This document shows, in pieces, positions 55,096 to 64,000 of a stretch of DNA of 64,000 nucleotides. Position 1 is the stretch's first letter, and each line of letters starts with the position of its first letter. Below the pieces are notes generated by a model. The model was not told where the DNA came from. It worked only from the letters and a program-made list of their open reading frames with translations, and did not search any database. The stretch is from contig CAIRTQ010000007.1 in assembly GCA_903881545.1 (NCBI GenBank), forward strand, positions 8,417-72,416. Reading direction: 5' to 3'. This DNA comes from an uncultured Elusimicrobia bacterium. GTDB lineage: Bacteria; Elusimicrobiota; Elusimicrobia; UBA1565; UBA9628. The position numbers were made by a program, and so were the translations under genes.

Positions 55096-58017
55096 ATGAG
55101 CACCCCTTTCCACTCGAAGTATTACGCACATGAACTCACCAAGCGTTGTTCGTCTGACAACCTGGAAAAGCTTTCGCAGTCGCTTAACAACGCGACCATT
55201 GACCTGAACCCCCATCAGGTCGACGCCGCCCTCTTTGCCTTCCAATCCCCTCTTTCCCGGGGAGCCTTGCTGGCGGACGAAGTTGGACTCGGTAAAACCA
55301 TCGAGGCAGGCCTTGTCATCAGCCAGCTTTGGGCGGAGCGCAAACGCCGAATTCTCTGCATCCTGCCCGCTGCGCTCCGCCAGCAGTGGGAGCGCGAGCT
55401 GGCGGAAAAGTTTTTCATCGACTCCTTAATCCTGGAGTCGGCCAACCATAAGGTTCTCCTGGCCCAGGGGCAGGCGAGTCCCTTTGAACAGAAGGACAAA
55501 GTCGTGCTCTGTTCCTTCCAGTTTGCCCGGCGCGAGGCCGCGGCCATCCAAAGGACGGCCTGGGACCTTGTGGTTGTCGACGAGGCCCATCGCTTGCGCA
55601 ATGTTTATAGAACCGGGAACAAGATCGCGCGCGCCATTCGTGACTCCATTGCCGGCAGGCCGAAGATACTCCTCACCGCCACGCCGCTTCAAAACTCGCT
55701 CATGGAGCTCTATGGGCTGCTCAGCTTCGTAGACCCCCATCTTTTTGGGAGTGACGACTCGTTTCGGGAGCAGTTCGCCAAGAAAGCCGGGGATGAATCC
55801 GCCGATGAGTATTCTGTATTGCGGCGTAGGATCGCGCCGGTGTGCCAGCGGACTTTGAGGCGGCAGGTCTCGGAATATATCCGCTTCACCAACCGTATTT
55901 CCCTGACTCAGGACTTCACTCCCAGCGCTGAGGAGTGGCAGCTTTATGAGCACGTCTCCGCTTATCTCCAAAGGCCGCAATCCTACGCGCTGCCGGTCGG
56001 GCAGCGGGCCCTGATCACCTTGGTCCTGCGCAAGATATTAGCCTCGTCCTCGTTTGCCATCTCAGCCACTCTTGGCACTCTGATTGAGCGATTGGAGGCC
56101 AGGGAAAACCAACTGAAGCCTCATCAGGCTGATCCAACTTCTTCGTTGGCAACGGATTACGAGTCCCTCCCGGAGACCCAAGAAGAGTGGGAGGCGGAAT
56201 CCGACAATAATGCCGCCGCGACGCCGGCCGAGGCCCCGGCTAATCCCAACGCGGCCGACCTGGCCGCCCTCCAGAAGGAATTGGAGGACCTCAAAAACTA
56301 TAAGAAGCTGGCCGAATCCATTAAGCTCAACGAAAAGGGCAACGCCCTGACCATCGCCTTGAAGACAGGACTGGAGCGAGCATCCCAGCTCGGCGCAAAG
56401 CGAAAAGCCCTCATCTTCACGGAGTCCCGCCGCACCCAGGCTTATCTTAAGGAGATGCTCCAGGCCAACGGCTATGCGGGTGAAGTCGTCACTTTCAATG
56501 GCACCAACCAGGACCCCGACTCACAGCGGGTCTATAAATCCTGGTTATCCCGCCATGCGGGCCAGGATTGCGTCACGGGGTCGCCTAGCGCGGATATCCG
56601 TTCGGCTCTGGTAGAGGAATTCCGCGACCGCGCCCCCATTATGATCGCAACGGAATCCGCCGCGGAAGGCATCAATCTCCAGTTCTGCAGCCTGGTCGTC
56701 AACTATGACCTTCCATGGAACCCCCAGCGAATCGAGCAGCGCATCGGACGCTGTCATCGCTACGGCCAGGAGCACGATGTCGTCGTCATCAACTTCATCA
56801 ATAGGAAGAACGCCGCCGACCGCCGGGTCTTCGAACTCCTGGCTCAGAAATTCAAGCTTTTTGAGGGGATTTTTGGTGCGTCTGATCAAGTGCTCGGCGC
56901 GCTGGAGTCCGGGGTGGACTTCGAGAAACGGGTCAACGACATATACCAGTCCTGCCGAACAACGGAAGAAATCGACGCGGCCTTCGACAGGCTCCAGGTT
57001 GAGCTGGACCTCCAAATTCAATCAAGGCTCGAAACAGCCAAAACCCAACTGATGGAGCACTTCGACGCCGAAGTCCAGGACCGGCTGCGGCTCCAGAAGG
57101 ATAAAACGAGCCAGCAAAGAAACCGCTTCCACTCTTTGCTCTGGCGGCTGGCCAAGGGGGAACTGCGGGACTGCGCGGATTTTTCCTCCGATGAGGTTCT
57201 TGAGTTCGACTTAAAAAAACTGCCGGACTCCATCCAGGCGGACGCAATTCCCAACGGACGATATGCGCTGCTTTCCTCGGTCGCGACGCAAGGCATCCAC
57301 CACTTTCGCATCGGCCATCCACTCGCGGAGAGGATGATCGCCGGAGCCCGCGCCCGCGAACTTAAACCGCATGCTCTCACTTTCAACTACAATCCCCGAC
57401 ACGGGAAAATCAGTCTGGTCGAAGCGCTCCAGGGCTTCTCGGGCTGGATTCAACTGCGGCTGGTCTCGCTCAATTCCCTGGAGCCTGAAGACCATCTGGT
57501 CTTCTCGGGACTACGCGACGACGGGAGGCCGCTCACCGCGGATGCTTGCGCGAAACTTTTTGAGGTTCCCGCCGAGTCATCGGGTCCGGTTGAGCTTCCC
57601 ACTGCCGTGGCCGACAAGCTCGCAGAAGCCGCCAAGGAGGGCGTTCAGGAGACCCTTAACGCCGCCGAGGAGCGGAATAAGAATTTTTTTGACGCGGAGA
57701 TGGAGAAGCTGGAAAATTGGGCGTACGACCTTAAGGATGGACTTGAAGCCGAGCTTCGCGAACTCCAGAGGACGATCACTATCGCGAAGCGCGAAGCCAG
57801 GCAAGCGGCCGACTTGAATACCAAGCTTGAGCTGCACAAGAAGGTCATTGAACTGGAACGCAAGCGGAACGAAAAAAGGCGCAGCCTCTTTGAGGAGCAG
57901 GATCGGATTGAAAAGCAAAAAGACGATATTCTCTCGACGGTGGAGGCGAAACTTAAGTTGGATGTGACTCAAGAGGTGCTATTCACGATTCGCTGGCGGG
58001 TAGCGGCAGCATCCTGA
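55096..58017 (+). CDS. SNF2-family helicase/translocase with a C-terminal extension of about 400 aa
   Basis: 973 aa. Motifs: I LADEVGLGKTIEAG, II VVVDEAHRLRN, III LLTATPLQNS, V-VI IATESAAEGINLQ...QRIGRCHRYGQ. A charged coiled coil lies at about 57661-57950. Confidence 0.9.
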   Translation: MSTPFHSKYYAHELTKRCSSDNLEKLSQSLNNATIDLNPHQVDAALFAFQSPLSRGALLADEVGLGKTIEAGLVISQLWAERKRRILCILPAALRQQWERELAEKFFIDSLILESANHKVLLAQGQASPFEQKDKVVLCSFQFARREAAAIQRTAWDLVVVDEAHRLRNVYRTGNKIARAIRDSIAGRPKILLTATPLQNSLMELYGLLSFVDPHLFGSDDSFREQFAKKAGDESADEYSVLRRRIAPVCQRTLRRQVSEYIRFTNRISLTQDFTPSAEEWQLYEHVSAYLQRPQSYALPVGQRALITLVLRKILASSSFAISATLGTLIERLEARENQLKPHQADPTSSLATDYESLPETQEEWEAESDNNAAATPAEAPANPNAADLAALQKELEDLKNYKKLAESIKLNEKGNALTIALKTGLERASQLGAKRKALIFTESRRTQAYLKEMLQANGYAGEVVTFNGTNQDPDSQRVYKSWLSRHAGQDCVTGSPSADIRSALVEEFRDRAPIMIATESAAEGINLQFCSLVVNYDLPWNPQRIEQRIGRCHRYGQEHDVVVINFINRKNAADRRVFELLAQKFKLFEGIFGASDQVLGALESGVDFEKRVNDIYQSCRTTEEIDAAFDRLQVELDLQIQSRLETAKTQLMEHFDAEVQDRLRLQKDKTSQQRNRFHSLLWRLAKGELRDCADFSSDEVLEFDLKKLPDSIQADAIPNGRYALLSSVATQGIHHFRIGHPLAERMIAGARARELKPHALTFNYNPRHGKISLVEALQGFSGWIQLRLVSLNSLEPEDHLVFSGLRDDGRPLTADACAKLFEVPAESSGPVELPTAVADKLAEAAKEGVQETLNAAEERNKNFFDAEMEKLENWAYDLKDGLEAELRELQRTITIAKREARQAADLNTKLELHKKVIELERKRNEKRRSLFEEQDRIEKQKDDILSTVEAKLKLDVTQEVLFTIRWRVAAAS

Positions 58018-58022
58018 TTCCC

Positions 58023-58220
58023 ATGGAACAGAACCCCGGCAGCCTGTTGGCCCAAAAGGTCGTCGCAGACCTGCGCAAGGAGCGCCTTCTCAGCGCCAAG
58101 CAGCTTGATGAGCTGACGGACAAACTGGTATCGGGCAGCCTCAAGGCCGAGGACTGGCATCTGATCGTCGAAATCGCTGTTGAAGCAGAGCAGGCCAAGA
58201 AAAATGCCGAAGCGAATTGA
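58023..58220 (+). CDS. 65-aa acidic helical protein, unknown function
   Basis: Starts 5 nt after the helicase stop, and its last 17 nt overlap the next gene start. I recognise no homology. Confidence 0.45.
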   Translation: MEQNPGSLLAQKVVADLRKERLLSAKQLDELTDKLVSGSLKAEDWHLIVEIAVEAEQAKKNAEAN

Positions 58221-60543
58221 AAGGCTCTCATTAACCGGTTTTCGCGGTGCCTCGACCGCGGTGGACATCCCTTTCGATGCTTCCAAGCCCATAGCCCTGG
58301 TGTTTGGGGAAAATGGCACAGGCAAATCGTCCATCATCGATGCGATCGACTTTGTTTGCAACAAGCAATACGGGTCGGTCGAGGATCGGAGCGGAACGAC
58401 TCCGAAGGAACACATCGTTGCCCTGAAATTTGCGTCAAAGGACCTCCGCGTCGCTCTCCAGGCAGATGGTCAGACCTGGGTGGGCAAGCTGGATAAGGGC
58501 TCTCCATCGGTTTCGGGGACGGGCAACCCACCGCGCGCGATAATCCTCCGCAGAAGCCATATTCTAAAGGTCATTGATGACCAGCCGGCGAATCGATACA
58601 AGGTTGTGCAACCCTTCATCGCCCTCCCCTGCATAGATTCTTCCGAAAAGTCCCTGAGAGACTGCATCCTATTATTAGAGAAGGACCTGGACAGGGCCGC
58701 TCACGCGAAGGTCCAGGCCGAGAAATCTTTGTCGGACTCCTGGGCAGCAGAGGGCAGCCATGGGACCGGCTTCCTCGTCTGGGCCAAGGAGCGATCCCAG
58801 GGAGACGCGGTCGCCATGAAGGCCAGCGCTGCTCATGCCAAGGAGTTTCAGACTTATCATGAGAAAGCCCAGAGCACTGTTGACGCGATGGGCAACTCGA
58901 TCAAGGCTAGAATTGACGCGGATGGCAAGCTCCAAAAGGCTGAGCAAGCCGTCAAAGACCTGGATCAGGCCGCGCAGGAATCGGATCTCATTGATCTCCT
59001 GACCCAGGCCCAGAAATATCTCCCAAAGTACTCTCACCCGGATGAATGCCCTCTTTGCGAGAGGCCCGGCATCACGGTCGCGGCCCTGCTTGCGCGGATC
59101 ACTGCCCGCCTCAGCGCCATGAACCGGACGATCTTGCTCAAAAAAGAACTTGATTCCATTCGGAAGATGCAGCACAGCGCCGTTGTGATTGCAGAGACAG
59201 ACCGTGCCGGCGTGATTCAGTCAGTCCGATCCCTCGCGGGAGCCTTGAGCAAGTCGAATCTGGCCGAGGTGATGACTCTGCGGCTGGATTGGTCTCAGTA
59301 CCCCAACATGCGAACAGAGGCAGCTCCTCCCGTCAACGATGAAATCGTGCGGGAAGCGCAGAAACTCCAGCTCGCCGCCAAGGCATCTCTGGCCTCAATA
59401 AGGATTAAACACGACACCGAAGTGCGGGCCCTGAATCAATTGGGAATGATTCAGCGGGCGGTTAAAGAGGTCGAGGAGAATACCAAGAAGGCGCTTGATC
59501 TGGAGAAGAACTGCAAGCGTGCTCAGGCGATCCTAACGATCATCGAGAAACACCGCAAGGAATACGTGGACGGCATTCTGACCGGCATTTCCACGGAAGT
59601 GGGGAATTTGTGCGAGAAGATACATCCAGGCGAGGGCATAAAAGTCCGGTTCTTCCTGGACTCCAAAAAACGCGGCTCGCTTGAGTCTCTTGGGGAGTTC
59701 GGGGGCGAGAAGGATATCCTCCCGCAAGCCTATTACAGCGAATCTCATCTAGACACGCTGGGGGTCTGCGTCTTTTTGGCGCTGGCGAAGCAATTCCGGG
59801 ACGAAAACACCGTTGTCGTCCTCGATGATGTTGTCACCTCGGTTGATGCGCCGCACATGGAGCGCTTCATGGCGATGCTCATGGATGAGGCGGCTCATTT
59901 CAGCCAGCTCATCGTGGCCACGCATTACCGTCCTTGGCTGGAACGGTTCCGTCATGCGCGAGGACCAAGCGCCAATGTTCAATTGATCCACTTGGCTCCG
60001 TGGACCCTCGCGCGCGGAATTCGCCCAGGGGGGGCCAAGCTTGCTGTTCAAGAGTTGAGGGAGGCTGCGGCGGCGGTTCCGTTTGACAGGCAGGTGGTGG
60101 CGTCTAAGGCTGGGGTATTTTTGGAAAGCCTTTTGGATCAGTTGGCGCTTCTCTATGGGTGTAAGGTGGCGCGAAAGGCTGATCCGAGTTATACCTTGGG
60201 CGAATTGCTGGACTGCTTCGGAAAGAAGCTTCGACCTGCTTTGAAATGCATCACCAACGTCGCTGGGGGGCCTCCCAAGGAAGCGCCGATTGGGCCGATG
60301 CTGGACGGCGTCACTGCCTTTACGTGGATTCGTAATCAGCTCGGGGCCCACTGGAACCCTTCCGGGTTTGATATTCCGGATGCTGACGTGCTGAAGTTTG
60401 CGCAGAAGACCATCGAGCTGGCCGAGGCATTGATCTGCGCCAAGTGCGGAGCGTTGCCGATCAAGAACAAGACGGGGACGCATTGGCAGTGCCGGTGTGC
60501 TGGCGAGGGCCTAAGGCTCTATCCTCTGGAGAACCCGGACTAA
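58204..60543 (+). CDS. Rad50/SMC-like ABC ATPase (PrrC/RloC-like architecture) with CxxC hook, HEPN-like Rx5H tail and C-terminal zinc ribbon
   Basis: 779 aa from ATG 58204. Walker A GENGTGKSS (58306-58332). Coiled-coil insert of about 330 aa with ECPLCE (C282/C285, 59047-59058). Signature-like YYSESHLDTLG. Walker B VVVLDDV. H-loop IVATHY. WIRNQLGAHW (R710-H716, 60331-60351). CAKC...CRC (60436-60498). Confidence 0.85.
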   Translation: MPKRIERLSLTGFRGASTAVDIPFDASKPIALVFGENGTGKSSIIDAIDFVCNKQYGSVEDRSGTTPKEHIVALKFASKDLRVALQADGQTWVGKLDKGSPSVSGTGNPPRAIILRRSHILKVIDDQPANRYKVVQPFIALPCIDSSEKSLRDCILLLEKDLDRAAHAKVQAEKSLSDSWAAEGSHGTGFLVWAKERSQGDAVAMKASAAHAKEFQTYHEKAQSTVDAMGNSIKARIDADGKLQKAEQAVKDLDQAAQESDLIDLLTQAQKYLPKYSHPDECPLCERPGITVAALLARITARLSAMNRTILLKKELDSIRKMQHSAVVIAETDRAGVIQSVRSLAGALSKSNLAEVMTLRLDWSQYPNMRTEAAPPVNDEIVREAQKLQLAAKASLASIRIKHDTEVRALNQLGMIQRAVKEVEENTKKALDLEKNCKRAQAILTIIEKHRKEYVDGILTGISTEVGNLCEKIHPGEGIKVRFFLDSKKRGSLESLGEFGGEKDILPQAYYSESHLDTLGVCVFLALAKQFRDENTVVVLDDVVTSVDAPHMERFMAMLMDEAAHFSQLIVATHYRPWLERFRHARGPSANVQLIHLAPWTLARGIRPGGAKLAVQELREAAAAVPFDRQVVASKAGVFLESLLDQLALLYGCKVARKADPSYTLGELLDCFGKKLRPALKCITNVAGGPPKEAPIGPMLDGVTAFTWIRNQLGAHWNPSGFDIPDADVLKFAQKTIELAEALICAKCGALPIKNKTGTHWQCRCAGEGLRLYPLENPD

Positions 60544-60548
60544 CCGAT

Positions 60549-62414
60549 ATGCGCCTAATCCGAGCGAAGATAAAGAACTTCCGCTGCTATCAGGACGAAG
60601 TGGTCATAGAGTTCGAGGACCTGACTGTGTTTGTCGGCCGGAATGACTCCGGGAAATCGGCAATCCTGGACGCTCTGGACATCTTCTTTAATGAGAAGGT
60701 ACCCGAAGCCGACGATCGATGTGTCCATGGGGCGGACCGAGATATTCGCATCACCTGCGAATTCGACCAACTTCCTCGGGAACTGGTCATCGATGTTCAG
60801 CATCCGACCAGTCTCGAACAAGAATATCTCCTCAATGGAAGCCGAAACCTTGAGATTTTGCGCATATACTCCTGCCCTGCTGCTGGAAAGCCAAAACTTC
60901 AAGGAATCTACTCGCGGGCACAACATCCCACTGCGGAGGCCTATAGCGATCTCCTCTCTTTGACGAACGCAAAACTTAAGCAACGGGCGCGGGAACTGGG
61001 CGTTGACCTCAGCGGGGCTGATCAGACGGTAAACACTGATTTACGACGAGCTATATGGGCGCACGCGGCCGGAGGCCTGAACCTGCAAGGGACAGACTTG
61101 GAGCTGAAGGCGGAAGCAACCGGCAAGGTATGGGAACAACTGAAGAAGTGCCTGCCCGTCTTTGCCCTCTTCAAGGCAGATCGTTCAAGCACAGACCAAG
61201 ACGACGAAGCACAGGACCCGATGAAGGCGGCAATCAAGGAAGCTATCCGGTCTCAAGAAGTAACCCTCGAACAAATCGCCGCTACAGTGAAGAGACAGGT
61301 TCAGGAAATCGCGAACCGCACGGTCGCCAAAATTCGCGAGATGAGCCCGGAGTTAGCCAGTCAGTTGACGCCTCGTGTGTCAAACAAGAGTTGGGATAGC
61401 CTATTTTCTGTTAGCCTCACTGGAGATGCAGAAATTCCGATTAACAAGCGTGGTAGCGGGACGCGGCGGCTTATCCTCCTCAACTTTTTCCGGGCAAAAG
61501 CGGAGCAGGATGCGGAAACAAAGGGTGCCAACGTAATCTATGCCATCGAAGAGCCTGAGACGAGTCAGCACCCTCACAACCAGAGGATGTTAATCGATGC
61601 CTTCGAGGACATCGCAGAGCGGCCGGGATGCCAGGTATTGCTCACCACCCATACGCCAGTCTTGGCACGCCGATTCTCGCAGAGTTCCCTGCGGCATGTC
61701 GCTAAGGCAAATGGTCAGCCTGCGGTCCTGAACGGACGCGATGAGGCGACATTGCGAACAATCGTCGACTCGCTCGGCGTCTTGCCCGACCACAACATCA
61801 AGGTCTTTTTTGGGGTTGAGGGGCGGCACGACATCACCTTCCTCAAGATACTTTCGAAACTGTTGCGGGACGGGGGAGAAGATATTCCCGACCTAGGTCT
61901 AGCTGAAGATTCCGGCCATCTCCTATTCGTACCGCTTGGCGGTAGTTGCCTAGATCTCTGGGTCGCCCGTTTAAGAGAGTTCCATCGTCCTGAGTTCTAC
62001 GTCCTTGATCGGGACAATCCCCCGCCAGCTCAGCCAAAATACCAAGCAATCGCAGCCCAGCTTCAAGCTCGCCCGAACTGCACTGTCTGGACCACAGGGA
62101 AGCGAGAGTTGGAAAACTACATTCACCCGGACGCAATTAGACCGGGCGTGCCAGGCTATGCGGGCACCGGTGCGGACTTTGAAGATGTCCCGGCACTCGT
62201 GGCTCGGGCACTACATGAAGCTGACGGTAGAGGTGCCGCCTGGGCCGAGGTGGAGGCCGACACGGAGAAGCTCGGGAAGAAGGTTTCCCGAGCGAAGCAA
62301 CGTCTGAACTCGGAATTCGCAGGAAGAATGACGCCCGACCTGCTTCGGCAGGCGGATAGAACTGATGAGGTCCGAGGATGGCTCCGCGCGGTTGGGGCAG
62401 CCTTGCGAGCATAG
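60549..62414 (+). CDS. OLD-family nuclease (ABC ATPase + TOPRIM), GajA-like
   Basis: 621 aa. MRLIRAKIKNFRCY..., Walker A GRNDSGKS, signature KRGSGTRRL, Walker B IYAIEEPETSQHP, H-loop LLTTHTP. TOPRIM GVEGRHD (E424), VLDRD (D487/D489) and KRELENY. Confidence 0.88.
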   Translation: MRLIRAKIKNFRCYQDEVVIEFEDLTVFVGRNDSGKSAILDALDIFFNEKVPEADDRCVHGADRDIRITCEFDQLPRELVIDVQHPTSLEQEYLLNGSRNLEILRIYSCPAAGKPKLQGIYSRAQHPTAEAYSDLLSLTNAKLKQRARELGVDLSGADQTVNTDLRRAIWAHAAGGLNLQGTDLELKAEATGKVWEQLKKCLPVFALFKADRSSTDQDDEAQDPMKAAIKEAIRSQEVTLEQIAATVKRQVQEIANRTVAKIREMSPELASQLTPRVSNKSWDSLFSVSLTGDAEIPINKRGSGTRRLILLNFFRAKAEQDAETKGANVIYAIEEPETSQHPHNQRMLIDAFEDIAERPGCQVLLTTHTPVLARRFSQSSLRHVAKANGQPAVLNGRDEATLRTIVDSLGVLPDHNIKVFFGVEGRHDITFLKILSKLLRDGGEDIPDLGLAEDSGHLLFVPLGGSCLDLWVARLREFHRPEFYVLDRDNPPPAQPKYQAIAAQLQARPNCTVWTTGKRELENYIHPDAIRPGVPGYAGTGADFEDVPALVARALHEADGRGAAWAEVEADTEKLGKKVSRAKQRLNSEFAGRMTPDLLRQADRTDEVRGWLRAVGAALRA

Positions 62415-62416
62415 CC

Positions 62417-64000
62417 ATGGCCAACCACAAGACAAAACTTGAGCTCACCTGGATCGGCAAGGAAAATCGGCCCAAGCTGGAGCCTCGGATTTTCATCGAA
62501 GATCCGGCCAAGTCCCAGCACGCTCCGTTCCGTGTCGGCAAGAACGACATCTTTGATAACCGCCTCGTCTTTGGGGACAACCTGCTGGCGCTTAAGGCGG
62601 TGGAACAGGAATTTTCCGGAAAAATCAAATGTATTTACGTTGATCCCCCGTTCAATACGCAGCAGGCCTTTGAGCATTACGATGACGGAATCGAACACTC
62701 CCTCTGGCTTTCTCTCATGCGGGACCGCTTCGAGTTGCTGCGCGATCTGCTCGCGGAGGATGGATCACTTTTCGTCCATATCGACGATAACGAGCTGGGG
62801 TATCTGATCGTCTTACTCGATGAGGTTTTCGGCCGCAAAAACCGTGGATATGTTGTGACTTTCAAGCAAGGGTCGGCGACTGGACATAAATCAATCAATC
62901 CCGGCTGTGTGAACACGACGAACTATGTCGTCCTCTACACAAAAAACAGGACGGCCTGGAAGCCAAACCGTCTTTTCACAGGCAGAGAGCGCGATACAAG
63001 ATACGGTCAGTTTATCCCCAACAGAGACCAACATCATGATGGCTGGAAGATAACGACCTTAATGAAGGCATTCGCGGCCAATCTCGGCGTCATTGAGAAG
63101 GAGGCCAGAAAACTTACCAAGGATCAGCCTGAGTTGATAGACCAGTTTGTTCTTGAAAATGCAAAGAGCGTAATTAGGCTCGCTCGACCCGATTACGACA
63201 GCGTCAGTGCGGATGCGAAGAAGCTAATTGATGCTTCCGCTGCAAAACCTGATCGGATTCTTAGATTGGAACGGGAAGGCTATTCGGACATCTATTTGAT
63301 CGGTGGCGAAAGAATTCTATTCTATTCGGACAAGCTCAAATTGATTGATGGAGAGCATGTCGCGGGTGAACCACTTACAACGCTATGGGACGACATCCTG
63401 TCCAATAACCTTCATGCGGAGGGCGGGATCGAATTCCCGAAGGGCAAGAAGCCAGAAGCTCTAATCAAGCGAGTCTTAGAACTTGCAACCAATCCCGGCG
63501 ATTGGGTCCTCGACTCCTTCGCCGGCTCCGGCACCACCGGCGCCGTCGCCCACAAAATGGGCCGCCGCTGGATCATGGTCGAGCTCGGCGAACACTGCCA
63601 CACCCACATCATCCCCCGCCTAAAAAAAGTCATCGATGGCCAAGACCCCGGCGGCATCACCGAGTCCGTCAACTGGAAAGGCGGCGGCGGCTTCCGCTAC
63701 TATCACCTAGCGCCTTCCCTTCTGGAGAAAGACCAGTTCGACAACTGGGTCATTAGCAAAAAGTACAATCCCCCAATGCTGACCGAAGCCATCTGCAAAT
63801 TGGAAGGCTTCATCTACGCCCCAAGCGATACGGTCTACTGGCAGCACGGCCGCTCAACCGAGAGGGACTTCATCTACGTGACCACCCAGACCCTCTCCCG
63901 CGAGCAATTTCAGAAGCTATCGGACGAGGCCGGCGAGGGCCGCAGCCTCCTCGTCATGTGCGGGGCTTTTCGCGTCAAGAATCTCGATGAGTTCCCGAAT
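62417..64000 (+). CDS. Beta-class N6-adenine (N6_N4 type) DNA methyltransferase, Type III Mod-like (3' end outside the window)
   Basis: Not in the ORF track because no stop occurs before 64000. My own translation gives MANHKTKLELTWIGKENRPKLEP..., motif IV YVDPPFN (62642-62653), motif I DSFAGSGTT (about 63512-63538) and GGGGFRYY. 528 codons are open to the window end. Confidence 0.9.
   Translation, partial: MANHKTKLELTWIGKENRPKLEPRIFIEDPAKSQHAPFRVGKNDIFDNRLVFGDNLLALKAVEQEFSGKIKCIYVDPPFNTQQAFEHYDDGIEHSLWLSLMRDRFELLRDLLAEDGSLFVHIDDNELGYLIVLLDEVFGRKNRGYVVTFKQGSATGHKSINPGCVNTTNYVVLYTKNRTAWKPNRLFTGRERDTRYGQFIPNRDQHHDGWKITTLMKAFAANLGVIEKEARKLTKDQPELIDQFVLENAKSVIRLARPDYDSVSADAKKLIDASAAKPDRILRLEREGYSDIYLIGGERILFYSDKLKLIDGEHVAGEPLTTLWDDILSNNLHAEGGIEFPKGKKPEALIKRVLELATNPGDWVLDSFAGSGTTGAVAHKMGRRWIMVELGEHCHTHIIPRLKKVIDGQDPGGITESVNWKGGGGFRYYHLAPSLLEKDQFDNWVISKKYNPPMLTEAICKLEGFIYAPSDTVYWQHGRSTERDFIYVTTQTLSREQFQKLSDEAGEGRSLLVMCGAFRVKNLDEFPN

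What the first reader, a model, noticed from the sequence alone, without database searches (positions are those of the whole stretch)
58204..60543. 779-aa ABC ATPase with a coiled-coil CxxC 'zinc hook', a C-terminal HEPN-like Rx5H motif and a terminal zinc ribbon (RloC-like anticodon-nuclease candidate)
Seen: Walker A GENGTGKSS, then a predicted coiled-coil insert of about 330 aa containing ECPLCE (C282/C285) near its middle. After that come a signature-like SESHLDTLG, Walker B VVVLDD and H-loop ATHY. The tail of about 200 aa carries WIRNQLGAHW (R710...H716) and CAKC-N14-CRC. Established: RloC is described as a Rad50-like ATPase with a CxxC zinc hook in a coiled-coil insert and a C-terminal anticodon nuclease. 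PrrC/RloC nuclease domains have been assigned to the HEPN superfamily, whose hallmark is Rx4-6H, often RN...H. These enzymes are typically embedded in R-M loci and fire when the R-M is disabled. Inference: this protein is an RloC-like, damage- or inhibitor-sensing RNase. The extra C-terminal zinc ribbon is not something I associate with RloC.
Basis: partly seen in the sequence, partly recalled or inferred. Interest (0 to 1): 0.7.

Follow-up and report, generated by a model that had tools for sequence, protein, structure and literature searches.

The report
Rad50-like ATPase guarding a restriction cassette
This gene encodes a Rad50-like ATPase with a zinc hook and an uncharacterised C-terminal domain that may be a nuclease; with a tiny partner gene it sits inside a horizontally acquired SNF2 helicase plus Type III restriction-modification cassette found in many bacterial phyla, and it looks like an unnamed relative-by-design of the anticodon nuclease RloC, not a member of that family.

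Summary
The hook cysteines (C282, C285) and R710, G714 and H716 are invariant in 45 homologues down to 28% identity.

The protein is an SMC/Rad50-type ABC ATPase. A confident AlphaFold2 model shows a 330-residue coiled coil with CPLC at its apex, a helical C-terminal domain and a zinc ribbon.

It is not RloC. The RloC catalytic triad R-x3-E-x36-52-H is absent, and Pfam AAA_13 scores below threshold.

The HEPN idea fits the motif and the helix topology. However, no Pfam, PADLOC, PDB-sequence or Foldseek search matched any HEPN domain, so the RNase role is inference.

The main new finding is context. In 32 of 40 loci with enough flank, across more than ten phyla, the gene lies in a tight cassette: SNF2 helicase, 65-residue ORF, this ATPase, Type III Mod, Res. 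Other defence genes are inserted between these. Distant relatives keep the small ORF but sit beside McrBC, Mrr or PLD-helicase restriction genes.

Best reading: a portable sensor-effector module linked to restriction systems. I found no description of it in the literature I could search. Novelty: new variant of a known kind. Interest 0.6.

The parts
55096..58017 (+). SNF2-family helicase (973 aa), first gene of the cassette
   Evidence: Pfam SNF2-rel_dom 7e-37 and Helicase_C. NCBIfam DISARM_DrmD_b scores 710 bits, below its cut-off of 950. PADLOC DrmD 1.7e-213. The best solved relatives are RapA and ISWI. A homologue lies upstream of the ATPase in 34 of 40 loci with enough flank.
58023..58220 (+). 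Conserved 65-aa ORF: a helical, acidic small protein that overlaps the ATPase start by 17 nt
   Evidence: Starts 5 nt after the SNF2 stop. An ORF of comparable size ends at the ATPase start in 66 of 70 loci, and 46 of these carry a G-x(3-7)-x-[DEN]-[WF] motif. It is also present with distant relatives in McrBC, Mrr and PLD-helicase contexts. No Pfam family; sources name it only 'hypothetical protein'.
58204..60543 (+). The 779-aa SMC/Rad50-type ABC ATPase of the finding
58306..58332 (+). Walker A GENGTGKSS (residues 35-43)
   Evidence: G35, N37, G38, G40 and K41 are invariant.
58633..59622 (+). Coiled-coil insert (residues 144-473)
   Evidence: Long helices 144-182, 202-251, 292-350 and 396-473 in the AlphaFold2 model.
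59044..59061 (+). ECPLCE zinc-hook motif (C282, C285) at the turn of the coiled coil
   Evidence: C282, P283 and C285 are invariant in 45 homologues. The motif lies in the loop between helices 261-275 and 292-350.
59737..59829 (+). Signature-like SESHLDTLG (512-520) and Walker B VVVLDD (537-542)
   Evidence: S512, H515, D517, T518, G520, D541 and D542 are invariant; D-loop residues S546 and D548, just downstream of this part, are also invariant.
59917..59928 (+). H-loop ATHY (572-575)
   Evidence: H574 is invariant.
60034..60432 (+). C-terminal helical domain (residues 611-743), a candidate HEPN-like effector with no detectable homologue of known function
   Evidence: Confident model of residues 586-779, which contain this domain and the zinc ribbon (pLDDT 86.5, pTM 0.81). 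Invariant E641 lies in helix 629-650. There is an insert with a beta-hairpin at 681-695. R710, N711, G714 and H716 lie at the end of helix 697-714, followed by helix 726-743. No Pfam, PADLOC, PDB or Foldseek match. A profile of residues 611-779 found 877 representative clusters; the best 150 all carry the domain at the C-terminus of proteins of about 780 aa or of fragments.
60325..60354 (+). WIRNQLGAHW (708-717): the Rx5H motif
   Evidence: R710, G714 and H716 are invariant and N711 is present in 44 of 45. R is lost but N and H are kept in distant relatives P0069-P0075.
60433..60540 (+). Terminal zinc ribbon CAKC-x14-CRC (residues 744-779)
   Evidence: Cysteines are kept in 37-38 of 45 homologues and lost together in the P0056-P0063 clade. 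Distant relatives give weak zinc-ribbon Pfam hits.
60549..62414 (+). OLD-family / AriA-like ABC ATPase (621 aa): cargo inserted between the ATPase and Mod, not part of the conserved core
   Evidence: Pfam AAA_15 4e-74. PADLOC AriA 1e-62, plus Old and GajA. PDB OLD-family nuclease 6p74 at 1e-11. No other locus has a homologue at this position; the same slot elsewhere holds AIPR, KwaB-like, HTH-M78 or GIY-YIG genes.
62378..64000 (+). Type III Mod methyltransferase, which runs off the window end
   Evidence: Called as a 607-aa N6_N4_Mtase gene on the window's own contig. tblastn gives 50% identity over residues 1-539 of the L001 Mod, which itself scores 7.6e-182 on PADLOC MTase_III.

Best explanation
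The gene encodes the sensor-effector subunit of a restriction-linked defence module.

**Shown**
- It is an SMC/Rad50-type ABC ATPase with intact ATP-binding and hydrolysis motifs.
- It has an antiparallel coiled coil capped by an invariant CP[LV]C hook.
- It has a conserved helical C-terminal domain with invariant E641, R710, G714 and H716, followed by a zinc ribbon.
- It is co-transcribed, probably with translational coupling, with a conserved partner of about 65 residues.
- In most genomes it lies between an SNF2 helicase and a Type III Mod/Res pair, on a horizontally acquired island.

**Inferred**
- Like RloC and PrrC, the ATPase/coiled-coil part reads a DNA-level or restriction-complex-level signal. 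That signal could be DNA ends, unmodified DNA, or loss or inhibition of the linked restriction enzyme.
- The hook mediates zinc-dependent dimerisation.
- ATP-driven rearrangement then frees the C-terminal domain, which acts as a metal-independent, HEPN-like RNase. This shuts down translation as a second line of defence.
- The small protein is a stoichiometric regulator or adaptor.
For: **ATPase class.** Pfam SMC_N scores 47.3 against a cut-off of 40. Foldseek matches the full model to SMC, Rad50 and LmuB heads at E down to 7e-13. All nucleotide-binding motifs are invariant.

**Hook.** CPLC is invariant and sits at the helix turn.

**C-terminal domain.** The model is confident. Invariant E641 lies in the long helix. 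The invariant RN-x2-G-x-H lies at the end of the next core helix, after an insert. This matches the published HEPN description: motif at the end of helix 3, a polar residue after R, an acidic residue in helix 2, and an insert between helices 2 and 3 (PMC3710099).

**Design parallel to RloC.** G. kaustophilus RloC is 804 aa, has a hook cysteine at C291 and catalytic residues at 692-737.

**Context.**
- 32 of 40 loci with enough flank carry SNF2 upstream and Type III Mod plus Res downstream.
- Mod and Res score 7.6e-182 and 6.7e-243 on the PADLOC Type III models.
- Genes in the window are 5 nt apart or overlapping.
- Distant relatives keep the small ORF but sit next to McrBC, Mrr or PLD-helicase/NERD/HNH genes. 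The constant partner is therefore 'a restriction system', as for PrrC and RloC.
- GC content drops from 0.69 to 0.56 at the island edge.
Against: - No statistical support for HEPN homology. Pfam and PADLOC give nothing for the domain in 27 family members or in 7 distant relatives.
- A profile search against PDB sequences gives nothing.
- The best Foldseek hits are generic helical bundles, at E = 0.35 against PDB and 0.24 against BFVD.
- R710 is replaced by I, V or other residues in the distant clade, which keeps only N...H.
- The RloC triad is absent.
- The strict synteny with SNF2, Mod and Res would fit equally well if the protein were a structural or motor subunit of the restriction complex itself.
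- No activity data exist.
Confidence: 0.42

Rival explanations
1. The ATPase is an integral motor or tethering subunit of an enlarged Type III-like restriction machine, comparable to DndD/PbeC in phosphorothioate systems or JetC in Wadjet. Together with the SNF2 translocase it captures, bridges or loads foreign DNA for cleavage by Res. The C-terminal domain and zinc ribbon bind DNA or another subunit and are not catalytic.
For: The gene order SNF2, small ORF, ATPase, Mod, Res is fixed in 32 of 40 loci across many phyla, with overlapping or near-abutting genes. The fold is SMC/Rad50/JetC/LmuB-like. No nuclease fold was detected in the tail. Zinc ribbons commonly bind nucleic acid.
Against: Distant relatives with the same tail and small ORF occur without SNF2 or Type III genes, next to McrBC, Mrr or PLD-helicase genes. 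Hymenobacter plasmid copies have no restriction genes nearby. An invariant E/R/N/H constellation is more typical of catalysis than of an interface. Unrelated defence genes are freely inserted between the ATPase and Mod, which argues against tight co-evolution with Mod and Res.
Confidence: 0.3
2. It is a Lamassu-like or Rad50-like DNA-end sensor whose effector is a DNase. The C-terminal domain, or a partner such as the YhcG/DUF1016 PD-(D/E)XK nuclease or Res, degrades DNA once the ATPase recognises phage DNA ends or replication intermediates.
For: The best defence-model hits are LmuB at 1.5e-21 and 3.5e-16. Foldseek matches the Lamassu LmuACB structures 9hqx and 9uxh. A YhcG-type nuclease recurs between Mod and Res in the window's contig and in L004, L018 and L023.
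Against: No LmuA or LmuC homologues are present. The tail has no PD-(D/E)XK, HNH, Toprim or other DNase signature. The YhcG insertion is present in only a minority of loci.
Confidence: 0.15
3. The small ORF and the ATPase form a toxin-antitoxin-like pair that merely hitch-hikes in defence islands. Its function is unrelated to the flanking restriction genes.
For: The pair is the only constant unit across all contexts. Some copies stand alone beside integrases on plasmids.
Against: Its position inside the operon, between SNF2 and Mod, is conserved in 32 of 40 loci. Every alternative context examined for distant relatives is also a restriction system.
Confidence: 0.1

Closest known systems
RloC (wobble-nucleotide-excising anticodon nuclease; Geobacillus kaustophilus, Campylobacter rlo genes; Pfam AAA_13 / COG4694)
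   Same: N-terminal ABC ATPase split by a coiled coil with a CxxC zinc hook at almost the same position (C282/C285 here; C291 named in RloC). Effector-like C-terminal domain. Similar length (779 against 804 aa). Occurrence in restriction-modification loci. One homologue (P0049) is even auto-named 'wobble nucleotide-excising tRNase' by JGI.
   Different: The catalytic triad R-x3-E-x36-52-H is absent. AAA_13 scores below threshold and over 60 residues only. The E-to-H spacing is 64-85 residues, against 41 in G. kaustophilus RloC. There is an extra terminal zinc ribbon, an obligatory small upstream ORF, and fixed synteny with SNF2 and Type III Mod/Res.
PrrC (E. coli anticodon nuclease silenced by the Type Ic EcoprrI system)
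   Same: An ABC ATPase plus a C-terminal HEPN-class RNase, embedded inside a restriction-modification operon and acting as a back-up when restriction is inhibited. This is the functional model proposed here.
   Different: PrrC has no coiled coil or hook, is half the size, is linked to Type I systems, and its triad is not matched here.
Other ABC-ATPase-HEPN fusions (APECO1_4465 and ERFG_01251 families, Anantharaman et al. 2013)
   Same: An ABC ATPase with a C-terminal Rx4-6H domain, in defence or mobile contexts.
   Different: Homology could not be tested because no sequences were at hand. No HEPN profile detects the present tail.
Lamassu LmuB, and Rad50/SbcC/SMC heads
   Same: These are the best HMM hits (LmuB 1.5e-21) and the best structural hits (SMC, Rad50, LmuB and JetC heads, E down to 7e-13). 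The hook is Rad50-like.
   Different: There are no LmuA/LmuC or Mre11/SbcD partners. The coiled coil is much shorter than in Rad50. The C-terminal domain is absent from those proteins.
Class 1 DISARM (DrmD SNF2 plus DrmMI methylase) and canonical Type III restriction-modification (EcoP15I-like Mod/Res)
   Same: The cassette combines a DrmD-like SNF2 helicase with an N6-adenine-type methylase and a helicase-nuclease. Mod and Res are bona fide Type III by HMM.
   Different: DrmA, DrmB and DrmC are absent. The SNF2 scores below the DrmD_b cut-off (710 against 950). Canonical Type III systems have neither the SNF2, the small ORF nor the SMC-like ATPase.

Membership tests
RloC (PMC2610378) | ABC ATPase motifs (Walker A, signature, Walker B/D-loop, H-loop) | tested here: met
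   All are present and invariant in 45 homologues.
RloC (PMC2610378) | Coiled-coil insert with a central CxxC zinc hook | tested here: met
   Helices span residues 144-473, with invariant CPLC at 282-285 in the turn.
RloC (PMC2610378) | C-terminal ACNase triad Arg-x3-Glu-x36-52-His | tested here: not met
   A regex over the tails of 45 homologues gives 2 unaligned chance matches. Four residues after R710 is the invariant G714, and four residues before E641 is G637.
RloC (PMC2610378) | Membership of Pfam AAA_13 (PF13166) at the gathering score | tested here: not met
   24.4 bits against a cut-off of 36, covering residues 522-575 only. No RloC or PrrC model is among the 25 best PADLOC hits, and no PADLOC model matches the tail.
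RloC (PMC2610378) | Excision of the tRNA wobble nucleotide; zinc-responsive activity | not testable with these tools
   Needs biochemistry.
HEPN superfamily (PMC3710099) | Rx4-6H motif with a polar residue after R | tested here: met
   R710-N711-x2-G714-x-H716. R, G and H are invariant and N is present in 44 of 45. R is lost in distant relatives.
HEPN superfamily (PMC3710099) | Motif at the end of core helix 3; conserved acidic residue in helix 2; insert between helices 2 and 3 | tested here: inconclusive
   The secondary structure of the model fits: E641 in helix 629-650, an insert at 651-696, and the motif at the end of helix 697-714.
HEPN superfamily (PMC3710099) | Significant profile or structural similarity to a known HEPN domain | tested here: not met
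   Pfam gave no HEPN family for the window tail, 27 family members and 7 distant relatives. PADLOC gave nothing relevant. The PDB sequence profile gave nothing. Best Foldseek hits were E = 0.35 (PDB) and 0.24 (BFVD), all generic helical bundles.
SMC/Rad50-type ABC ATPase | SMC_N head fold with a coiled-coil insertion | tested here: met
   Pfam SMC_N scores 47.3 against a cut-off of 40. Foldseek matches the SMC head 5xei at 7e-13 and Rad50 7zr1 at 1e-11.
Lamassu (LmuB) | LmuB accompanied by an LmuA effector and LmuC | tested here: not met
   There is a partial LmuB HMM hit at 1.5e-21. The neighbours are SNF2, the small ORF, Mod and Res, with no LmuA or LmuC.
Type III restriction-modification (neighbouring genes) | A Mod methyltransferase plus a Res helicase-nuclease | tested here: met
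   L001 Mod scores 7.6e-182 and Res 6.7e-243 on the PADLOC Type III models. Both are present in 32 of 40 loci. In the window only Mod is visible (62378 to the end). Res is inferred to lie beyond the window, as in the closest genome L004.
Class 1 DISARM | DrmD at equivalog score, plus DrmA, DrmB and DrmC | tested here: not met
   NF038318 scores 710, below its cut-off of 950. No DrmA, DrmB or DrmC genes are in the loci.

The most novel reading that the evidence does not exclude
The 65-residue ORF and the hook-bearing ATPase, with its unclassified E/RN-G-H domain and zinc ribbon, form a previously undescribed portable 'restriction guard'. This module plugs into Type III, McrBC, Mrr and PLD-helicase restriction systems. 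It fires an RNase (or a new kind of nuclease) when the linked restriction system is inhibited or when DNA ends accumulate. On this reading the five-gene cassette SNF2, small ORF, ATPase, Mod, Res is an unnamed multi-component defence system widespread across bacterial phyla.
Probability: 0.35. Interest if true: 0.75.

Novelty: new variant of a known kind. Interest (0 to 1): 0.6.

Why it matters
ABC ATPases fused or paired with effectors (PrrC, RloC, OLD, Gabija, PARIS, Lamassu) are a major theme in phage defence. How they sense infection, and how they talk to restriction systems, is still poorly understood.

This family offers a clean case for study:
- It is a large family. A profile of the tail (residues 611-779) matches 877 clusters at 50% identity.
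- It has a fixed partner gene and an invariant candidate active site.
- It is physically wired into Type III restriction cassettes in organisms ranging from Akkermansia to Nitrospira.

Current annotation would label the Mod and Res genes as ordinary Type III restriction-modification and leave the other three genes as 'AAA family ATPase', 'hypothetical' and 'helicase'. Showing what the module does would add a system to defence catalogues. It would also test whether the RloC/PrrC 'guard the restriction enzyme' logic is general.

Tried and rejected
**Profile and structure searches of the tail**
- Pfam search of the tail alone, of 27 family members and of 7 distant relatives: no HEPN or nuclease family, only weak zinc-ribbon hits.
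- PADLOC on five tails: nothing relevant.
- Profile search of PDB sequences with the tail: only noise.
- Foldseek of a separate, confident model of residues 586-779 against PDB and BFVD: no hit at E <= 0.001. The best hits were vinculin-tail, M2-1, FAT and talin-type helical bundles.

**Searches for the domain in other architectures**
- Profile search of 1.84 billion representatives with the tail: all listed hits have the same architecture. Only the best 150 of 877 are shown, so the weak end of the list could not be inspected.
- Word-indexed search with the tail profile: only fragments of the same family, and no Pfam annotation for the tail.

**Attempts to compare directly with RloC**
- I tried to obtain an RloC sequence or HEPN alignments from paper supplements. 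The RloC supplement holds only a machine-read (OCR) copy of residues 121-540. The HEPN supplement is an index page.
- The ABC ATPase classification of Krishnan et al. 2020, which may already list this clade, is not in the library.

**Interpretations rejected**
- Hma/BREX-related (DUF499) systems, CoCoNuTs and Dnd were read about and rejected as descriptions of this cassette.
- His-Me/HNH reading of 'H-N ... CxxC': rejected because the conserved residues lie in helices, not in a beta-beta-alpha unit.

**Uninformative**
- The promoter and terminator scan of the cassette was at chance level.
Full report
**Observation**

The ORF at 58204-60543 (+) encodes 779 residues.
- Walker A, residues 35-43
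- ECPLCE, 281-286
- SESHLDTLG, 512-520
- VVVLDD, 537-542
- ATHY, 572-575
- WIRNQLGAHW, 708-717
- CAKC, 14 residues, then CRC, 745-765

An Rx4-6H motif by itself means little: 35% of shuffled tails contain one, and 1.4% contain an RN-type one. Conservation is what makes it real. A database search found about 65 full-length homologues of about 780 aa. In an alignment of 45 of them, at 28-76% identity, C282, P283, C285, E641, R710, G714 and H716 are invariant. N711 is present in 44 of 45. All nucleotide-binding residues are invariant. The four zinc-ribbon cysteines are kept in 37-38 of 45 and are lost together in one alphaproteobacterial clade.

**The protein**

Pfam recognises only the ATPase head: SMC_N at 47.3 bits (cut-off 40), plus AAA_23 and AAA_21. 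AAA_13, the RloC/PrrC family, reaches 24.4 bits against a cut-off of 36, and only over residues 522-575. The best defence-specific model is Lamassu LmuB at 1.5e-21.

An AlphaFold2 model built on the 45-sequence alignment is confident (mean pLDDT 87). It shows:
- a split ABC head (residues 1-143 and 474-610);
- long antiparallel helices at 144-473, with CPLC in the loop between helices 261-275 and 292-350, which is the geometry of a Rad50-type hook;
- a helical C-terminal domain at 611-743;
- a small beta-rich terminal unit at 744-779.

Foldseek places the whole model with SMC, Rad50, LmuB and JetC heads, at E down to 7e-13.

**Is the tail a HEPN RNase?**

The published description of HEPN domains (PMC3710099) has four elements:
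- a four-helix up-down core;
- the Rx4-6H motif at the end of helix 3, with a polar residue after R;
- a conserved acidic residue in helix 2;
- a variable insert between helices 2 and 3.

The model's secondary structure fits this. There is a short helix at 614-623. The long helix 629-650 carries the invariant E641. An insert at 651-696 includes a beta-hairpin. Helix 697-714 ends in R710-N711-x2-G714-x-H716, and helix 726-743 follows.

None of the searches I could run gives statistical support:
- Pfam finds nothing in the tail of the window protein, of 27 family members, or of 7 distant relatives.
- PADLOC finds nothing.
- A profile search of PDB sequences finds nothing.
- Foldseek with a separate confident model of residues 586-779 (pLDDT 86.5, pTM 0.81) finds nothing better than E = 0.35 in the PDB and 0.24 in BFVD. 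The hits are generic helical bundles.

Distant relatives at 22-25% identity keep W-x-[IV]-N-x-x-V-H-[YF]-N but have lost the arginine.

HEPN is therefore a reasonable hypothesis from motif and topology. It is not a demonstrated homology.

**Is it RloC?**

RloC is defined by ABC motifs, a coiled coil with a CxxC hook, and the catalytic triad R-x3-E-x36-52-H (R692, E696 and H737 in the 804-aa G. kaustophilus protein; PMC2610378). The first two features are met. The third is not. A regex over 45 tails gives two unaligned chance matches. The residue four after R710 is the invariant G714, and the residue four before E641 is G637. Together with the sub-threshold AAA_13 score, this rules out membership. 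The design is nevertheless strikingly parallel in length, hook position and position of the candidate catalytic residues.

**Context: the main new result**

The window's own contig and loci fetched through homologues show one recurring cassette:
- an SNF2 helicase of about 950-975 aa;
- an ORF of about 65 aa;
- this ATPase;
- a Type III Mod methyltransferase;
- a Type III Res enzyme.

The L001 Mod and Res score 7.6e-182 and 6.7e-243 on the PADLOC Type III models. In 77 loci from GTDB species genomes, plus those fetched earlier, 40 have enough flank to judge. Of these, 34 have the SNF2 upstream and 32 have SNF2, Mod and Res together.

Carriers span Elusimicrobiota, Nitrospirota, Acidobacteriota, Spirochaetota, Synergistota, Bacteroidota, Alpha- and Gammaproteobacteria, Verrucomicrobiota (including Akkermansia muciniphila), Planctomycetota, Deinococcota, Chloroflexota, Myxococcota and others.

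In the window the genes are packed tightly. The SNF2 stop is at 58017 and the small ORF starts at 58023. The small ORF overlaps the ATPase start by 17 nt. The next gene starts 5 nt after the ATPase stop. GC content falls from about 0.69 in the flanking hydrogenase-maturation genes to about 0.56 from 54.9 kb onward, so the cassette is an acquired island. The SNF2 resembles DISARM DrmD_b but scores below that model's cut-off (710 against 950), and no DrmA, DrmB or DrmC genes are present.

**Cargo slots**

The gap between the ATPase and Mod is either a few bases or holds an unrelated defence gene:
- an OLD/AriA-like ABC ATPase in the window (60549-62414);
- an AIPR protein of about 600 aa in a group of alphaproteobacterial loci;
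- a KwaB-like protein;
- an HTH-M78 peptidase pair;
- a GIY-YIG protein.

A YhcG/DUF1016 PD-(D/E)XK nuclease recurs between Mod and Res. It is seen in L004, L018 and L023, and it follows Mod on the window's own contig. This matches the 'embedded defence gene' pattern described for other multi-gene systems (bioRxiv 10.1101/2024.01.29.577857).

**The small ORF and the portable pair**

An ORF of 40-130 codons ends at the ATPase start in 66 of 70 loci. The products align as one family, with a hydrophobic-periodic N-terminal half, a G-x-[LMIV]-x-x-[ED]-D-W-x-L signature and a polar acidic tail. Of the 66, 46 carry a G-x(3-7)-x-[DEN]-[WF] form of the motif. The family has no Pfam entry, and sources name it only 'hypothetical protein'.

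Distant relatives of the ATPase (P0074, P0071, P0065) also have a 64-67-codon ORF overlapping their start. Their neighbours differ: a PLD-helicase with NERD and a ScoMcrA-like HNH, an Mrr, and an EVE-McrB/McrC pair. Copies on Hymenobacter plasmids lie beside an integrase, without restriction genes.

The constant unit is therefore the small protein plus the ATPase, and its usual neighbour is a restriction system of one type or another. This is the pattern known for PrrC and RloC.

**Mechanism**

*Shown:* an intact SMC/Rad50-type ATPase, a hook, a conserved tail with a candidate active site, a zinc ribbon, a co-translated partner, and operonic linkage to SNF2 and Type III Mod/Res on a mobile island.

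*Inferred, at about 0.4 confidence:*
- The ATPase/coiled-coil part senses DNA ends, unmodified DNA, or the state of the linked restriction complex.
- The hook mediates zinc-dependent dimerisation.
- ATP-driven rearrangement exposes the tail, which cleaves RNA without metal, HEPN-style, as a back-up abortive response.
- The small protein regulates or adapts this step.

*Rivals:*
- An integral motor or tether of an enlarged Type III machine, with a non-catalytic tail (0.3).
- A Lamassu-like DNA-end sensor with a DNase output (0.15).
- A hitch-hiking toxin-antitoxin-like pair (0.1).

**Novelty and verdict**

Searches of the held literature found no description of this cassette or of the tail domain. 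The papers read on HEPN, Dnd, BREX/Hma, CoCoNuTs and embedded defences do not cover it.

I rate this a new variant of a known kind: an effector-bearing ABC ATPase linked to restriction systems. Interest 0.6.

Noticed in passing
window 60549-62414 (+): A 621-aa OLD-family / PARIS AriA-like ABC ATPase is wedged between the hook ATPase and Mod (Pfam AAA_15 4e-74, PADLOC AriA 1e-62, PDB OLD nuclease 6p74 at 1e-11). Its last 221 residues scanned have no Pfam match but contain a 'LDRDN' stretch that could be a degenerate Toprim. No other locus has a homologue of this gene in that slot.
   Followed up: partly
window 58023-58220 (+); also L082 7811-8014, L083 7810-8004, L084 5208-5405: A conserved, unannotated protein of about 65 aa always overlaps the start of the ATPase gene, even in distant relatives that sit next to McrBC, Mrr or PLD-helicase restriction genes. 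It has no Pfam family.
   Followed up: yes
L022 12315-14108, L037, L044, L045, L046, L065 (same slot, between the ATPase and Mod): An AIPR-domain protein of about 600 aa (abortive-infection family PF10592, E = 2e-33 in L022) is inserted at the same position in a group of alphaproteobacterial cassettes. At least three of these genomes (L022, L045, L046) have ATPases matching the clade that lost the zinc-ribbon cysteines. Other loci carry KwaB-like, HTH-M78 or GIY-YIG genes in this slot.
   Followed up: partly
L004 14167-15291, L023 15661-16725, L018 14038-15006; the window's own contig just beyond the window end: A YhcG/DUF1016 PD-(D/E)XK nuclease gene recurs between Type III Mod and Res, forming a second cargo slot in the cassette.
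   Followed up: partly
window about 54900: There is a sharp GC drop from about 0.69 (the hypC/hypD and AIRS-domain (hypE-like) hydrogenase-maturation genes on the minus strand, and upstream genes) to about 0.56. This marks the left edge of the acquired defence island. No integrase or tRNA was looked for at the junction.
   Followed up: no
P0065 (L084 5392-8301): A 969-aa relative carries the tail domain twice: a WRLRNWSGAH motif plus zinc ribbon, followed by a degenerate second copy that has its own CxxC...CxxC.
   Followed up: no
L081 (Hymenobacter monticola plasmid NZ_CP094536.1) 9001-14793: On Hymenobacter and Fibrella plasmids the ATPase is not in the SNF2/Type III cassette. It follows a tyrosine recombinase and precedes a 642-aa protein with no Pfam match and a 477-aa metallo-beta-lactamase-fold protein. 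This may be an alternative partner set.
   Followed up: partly
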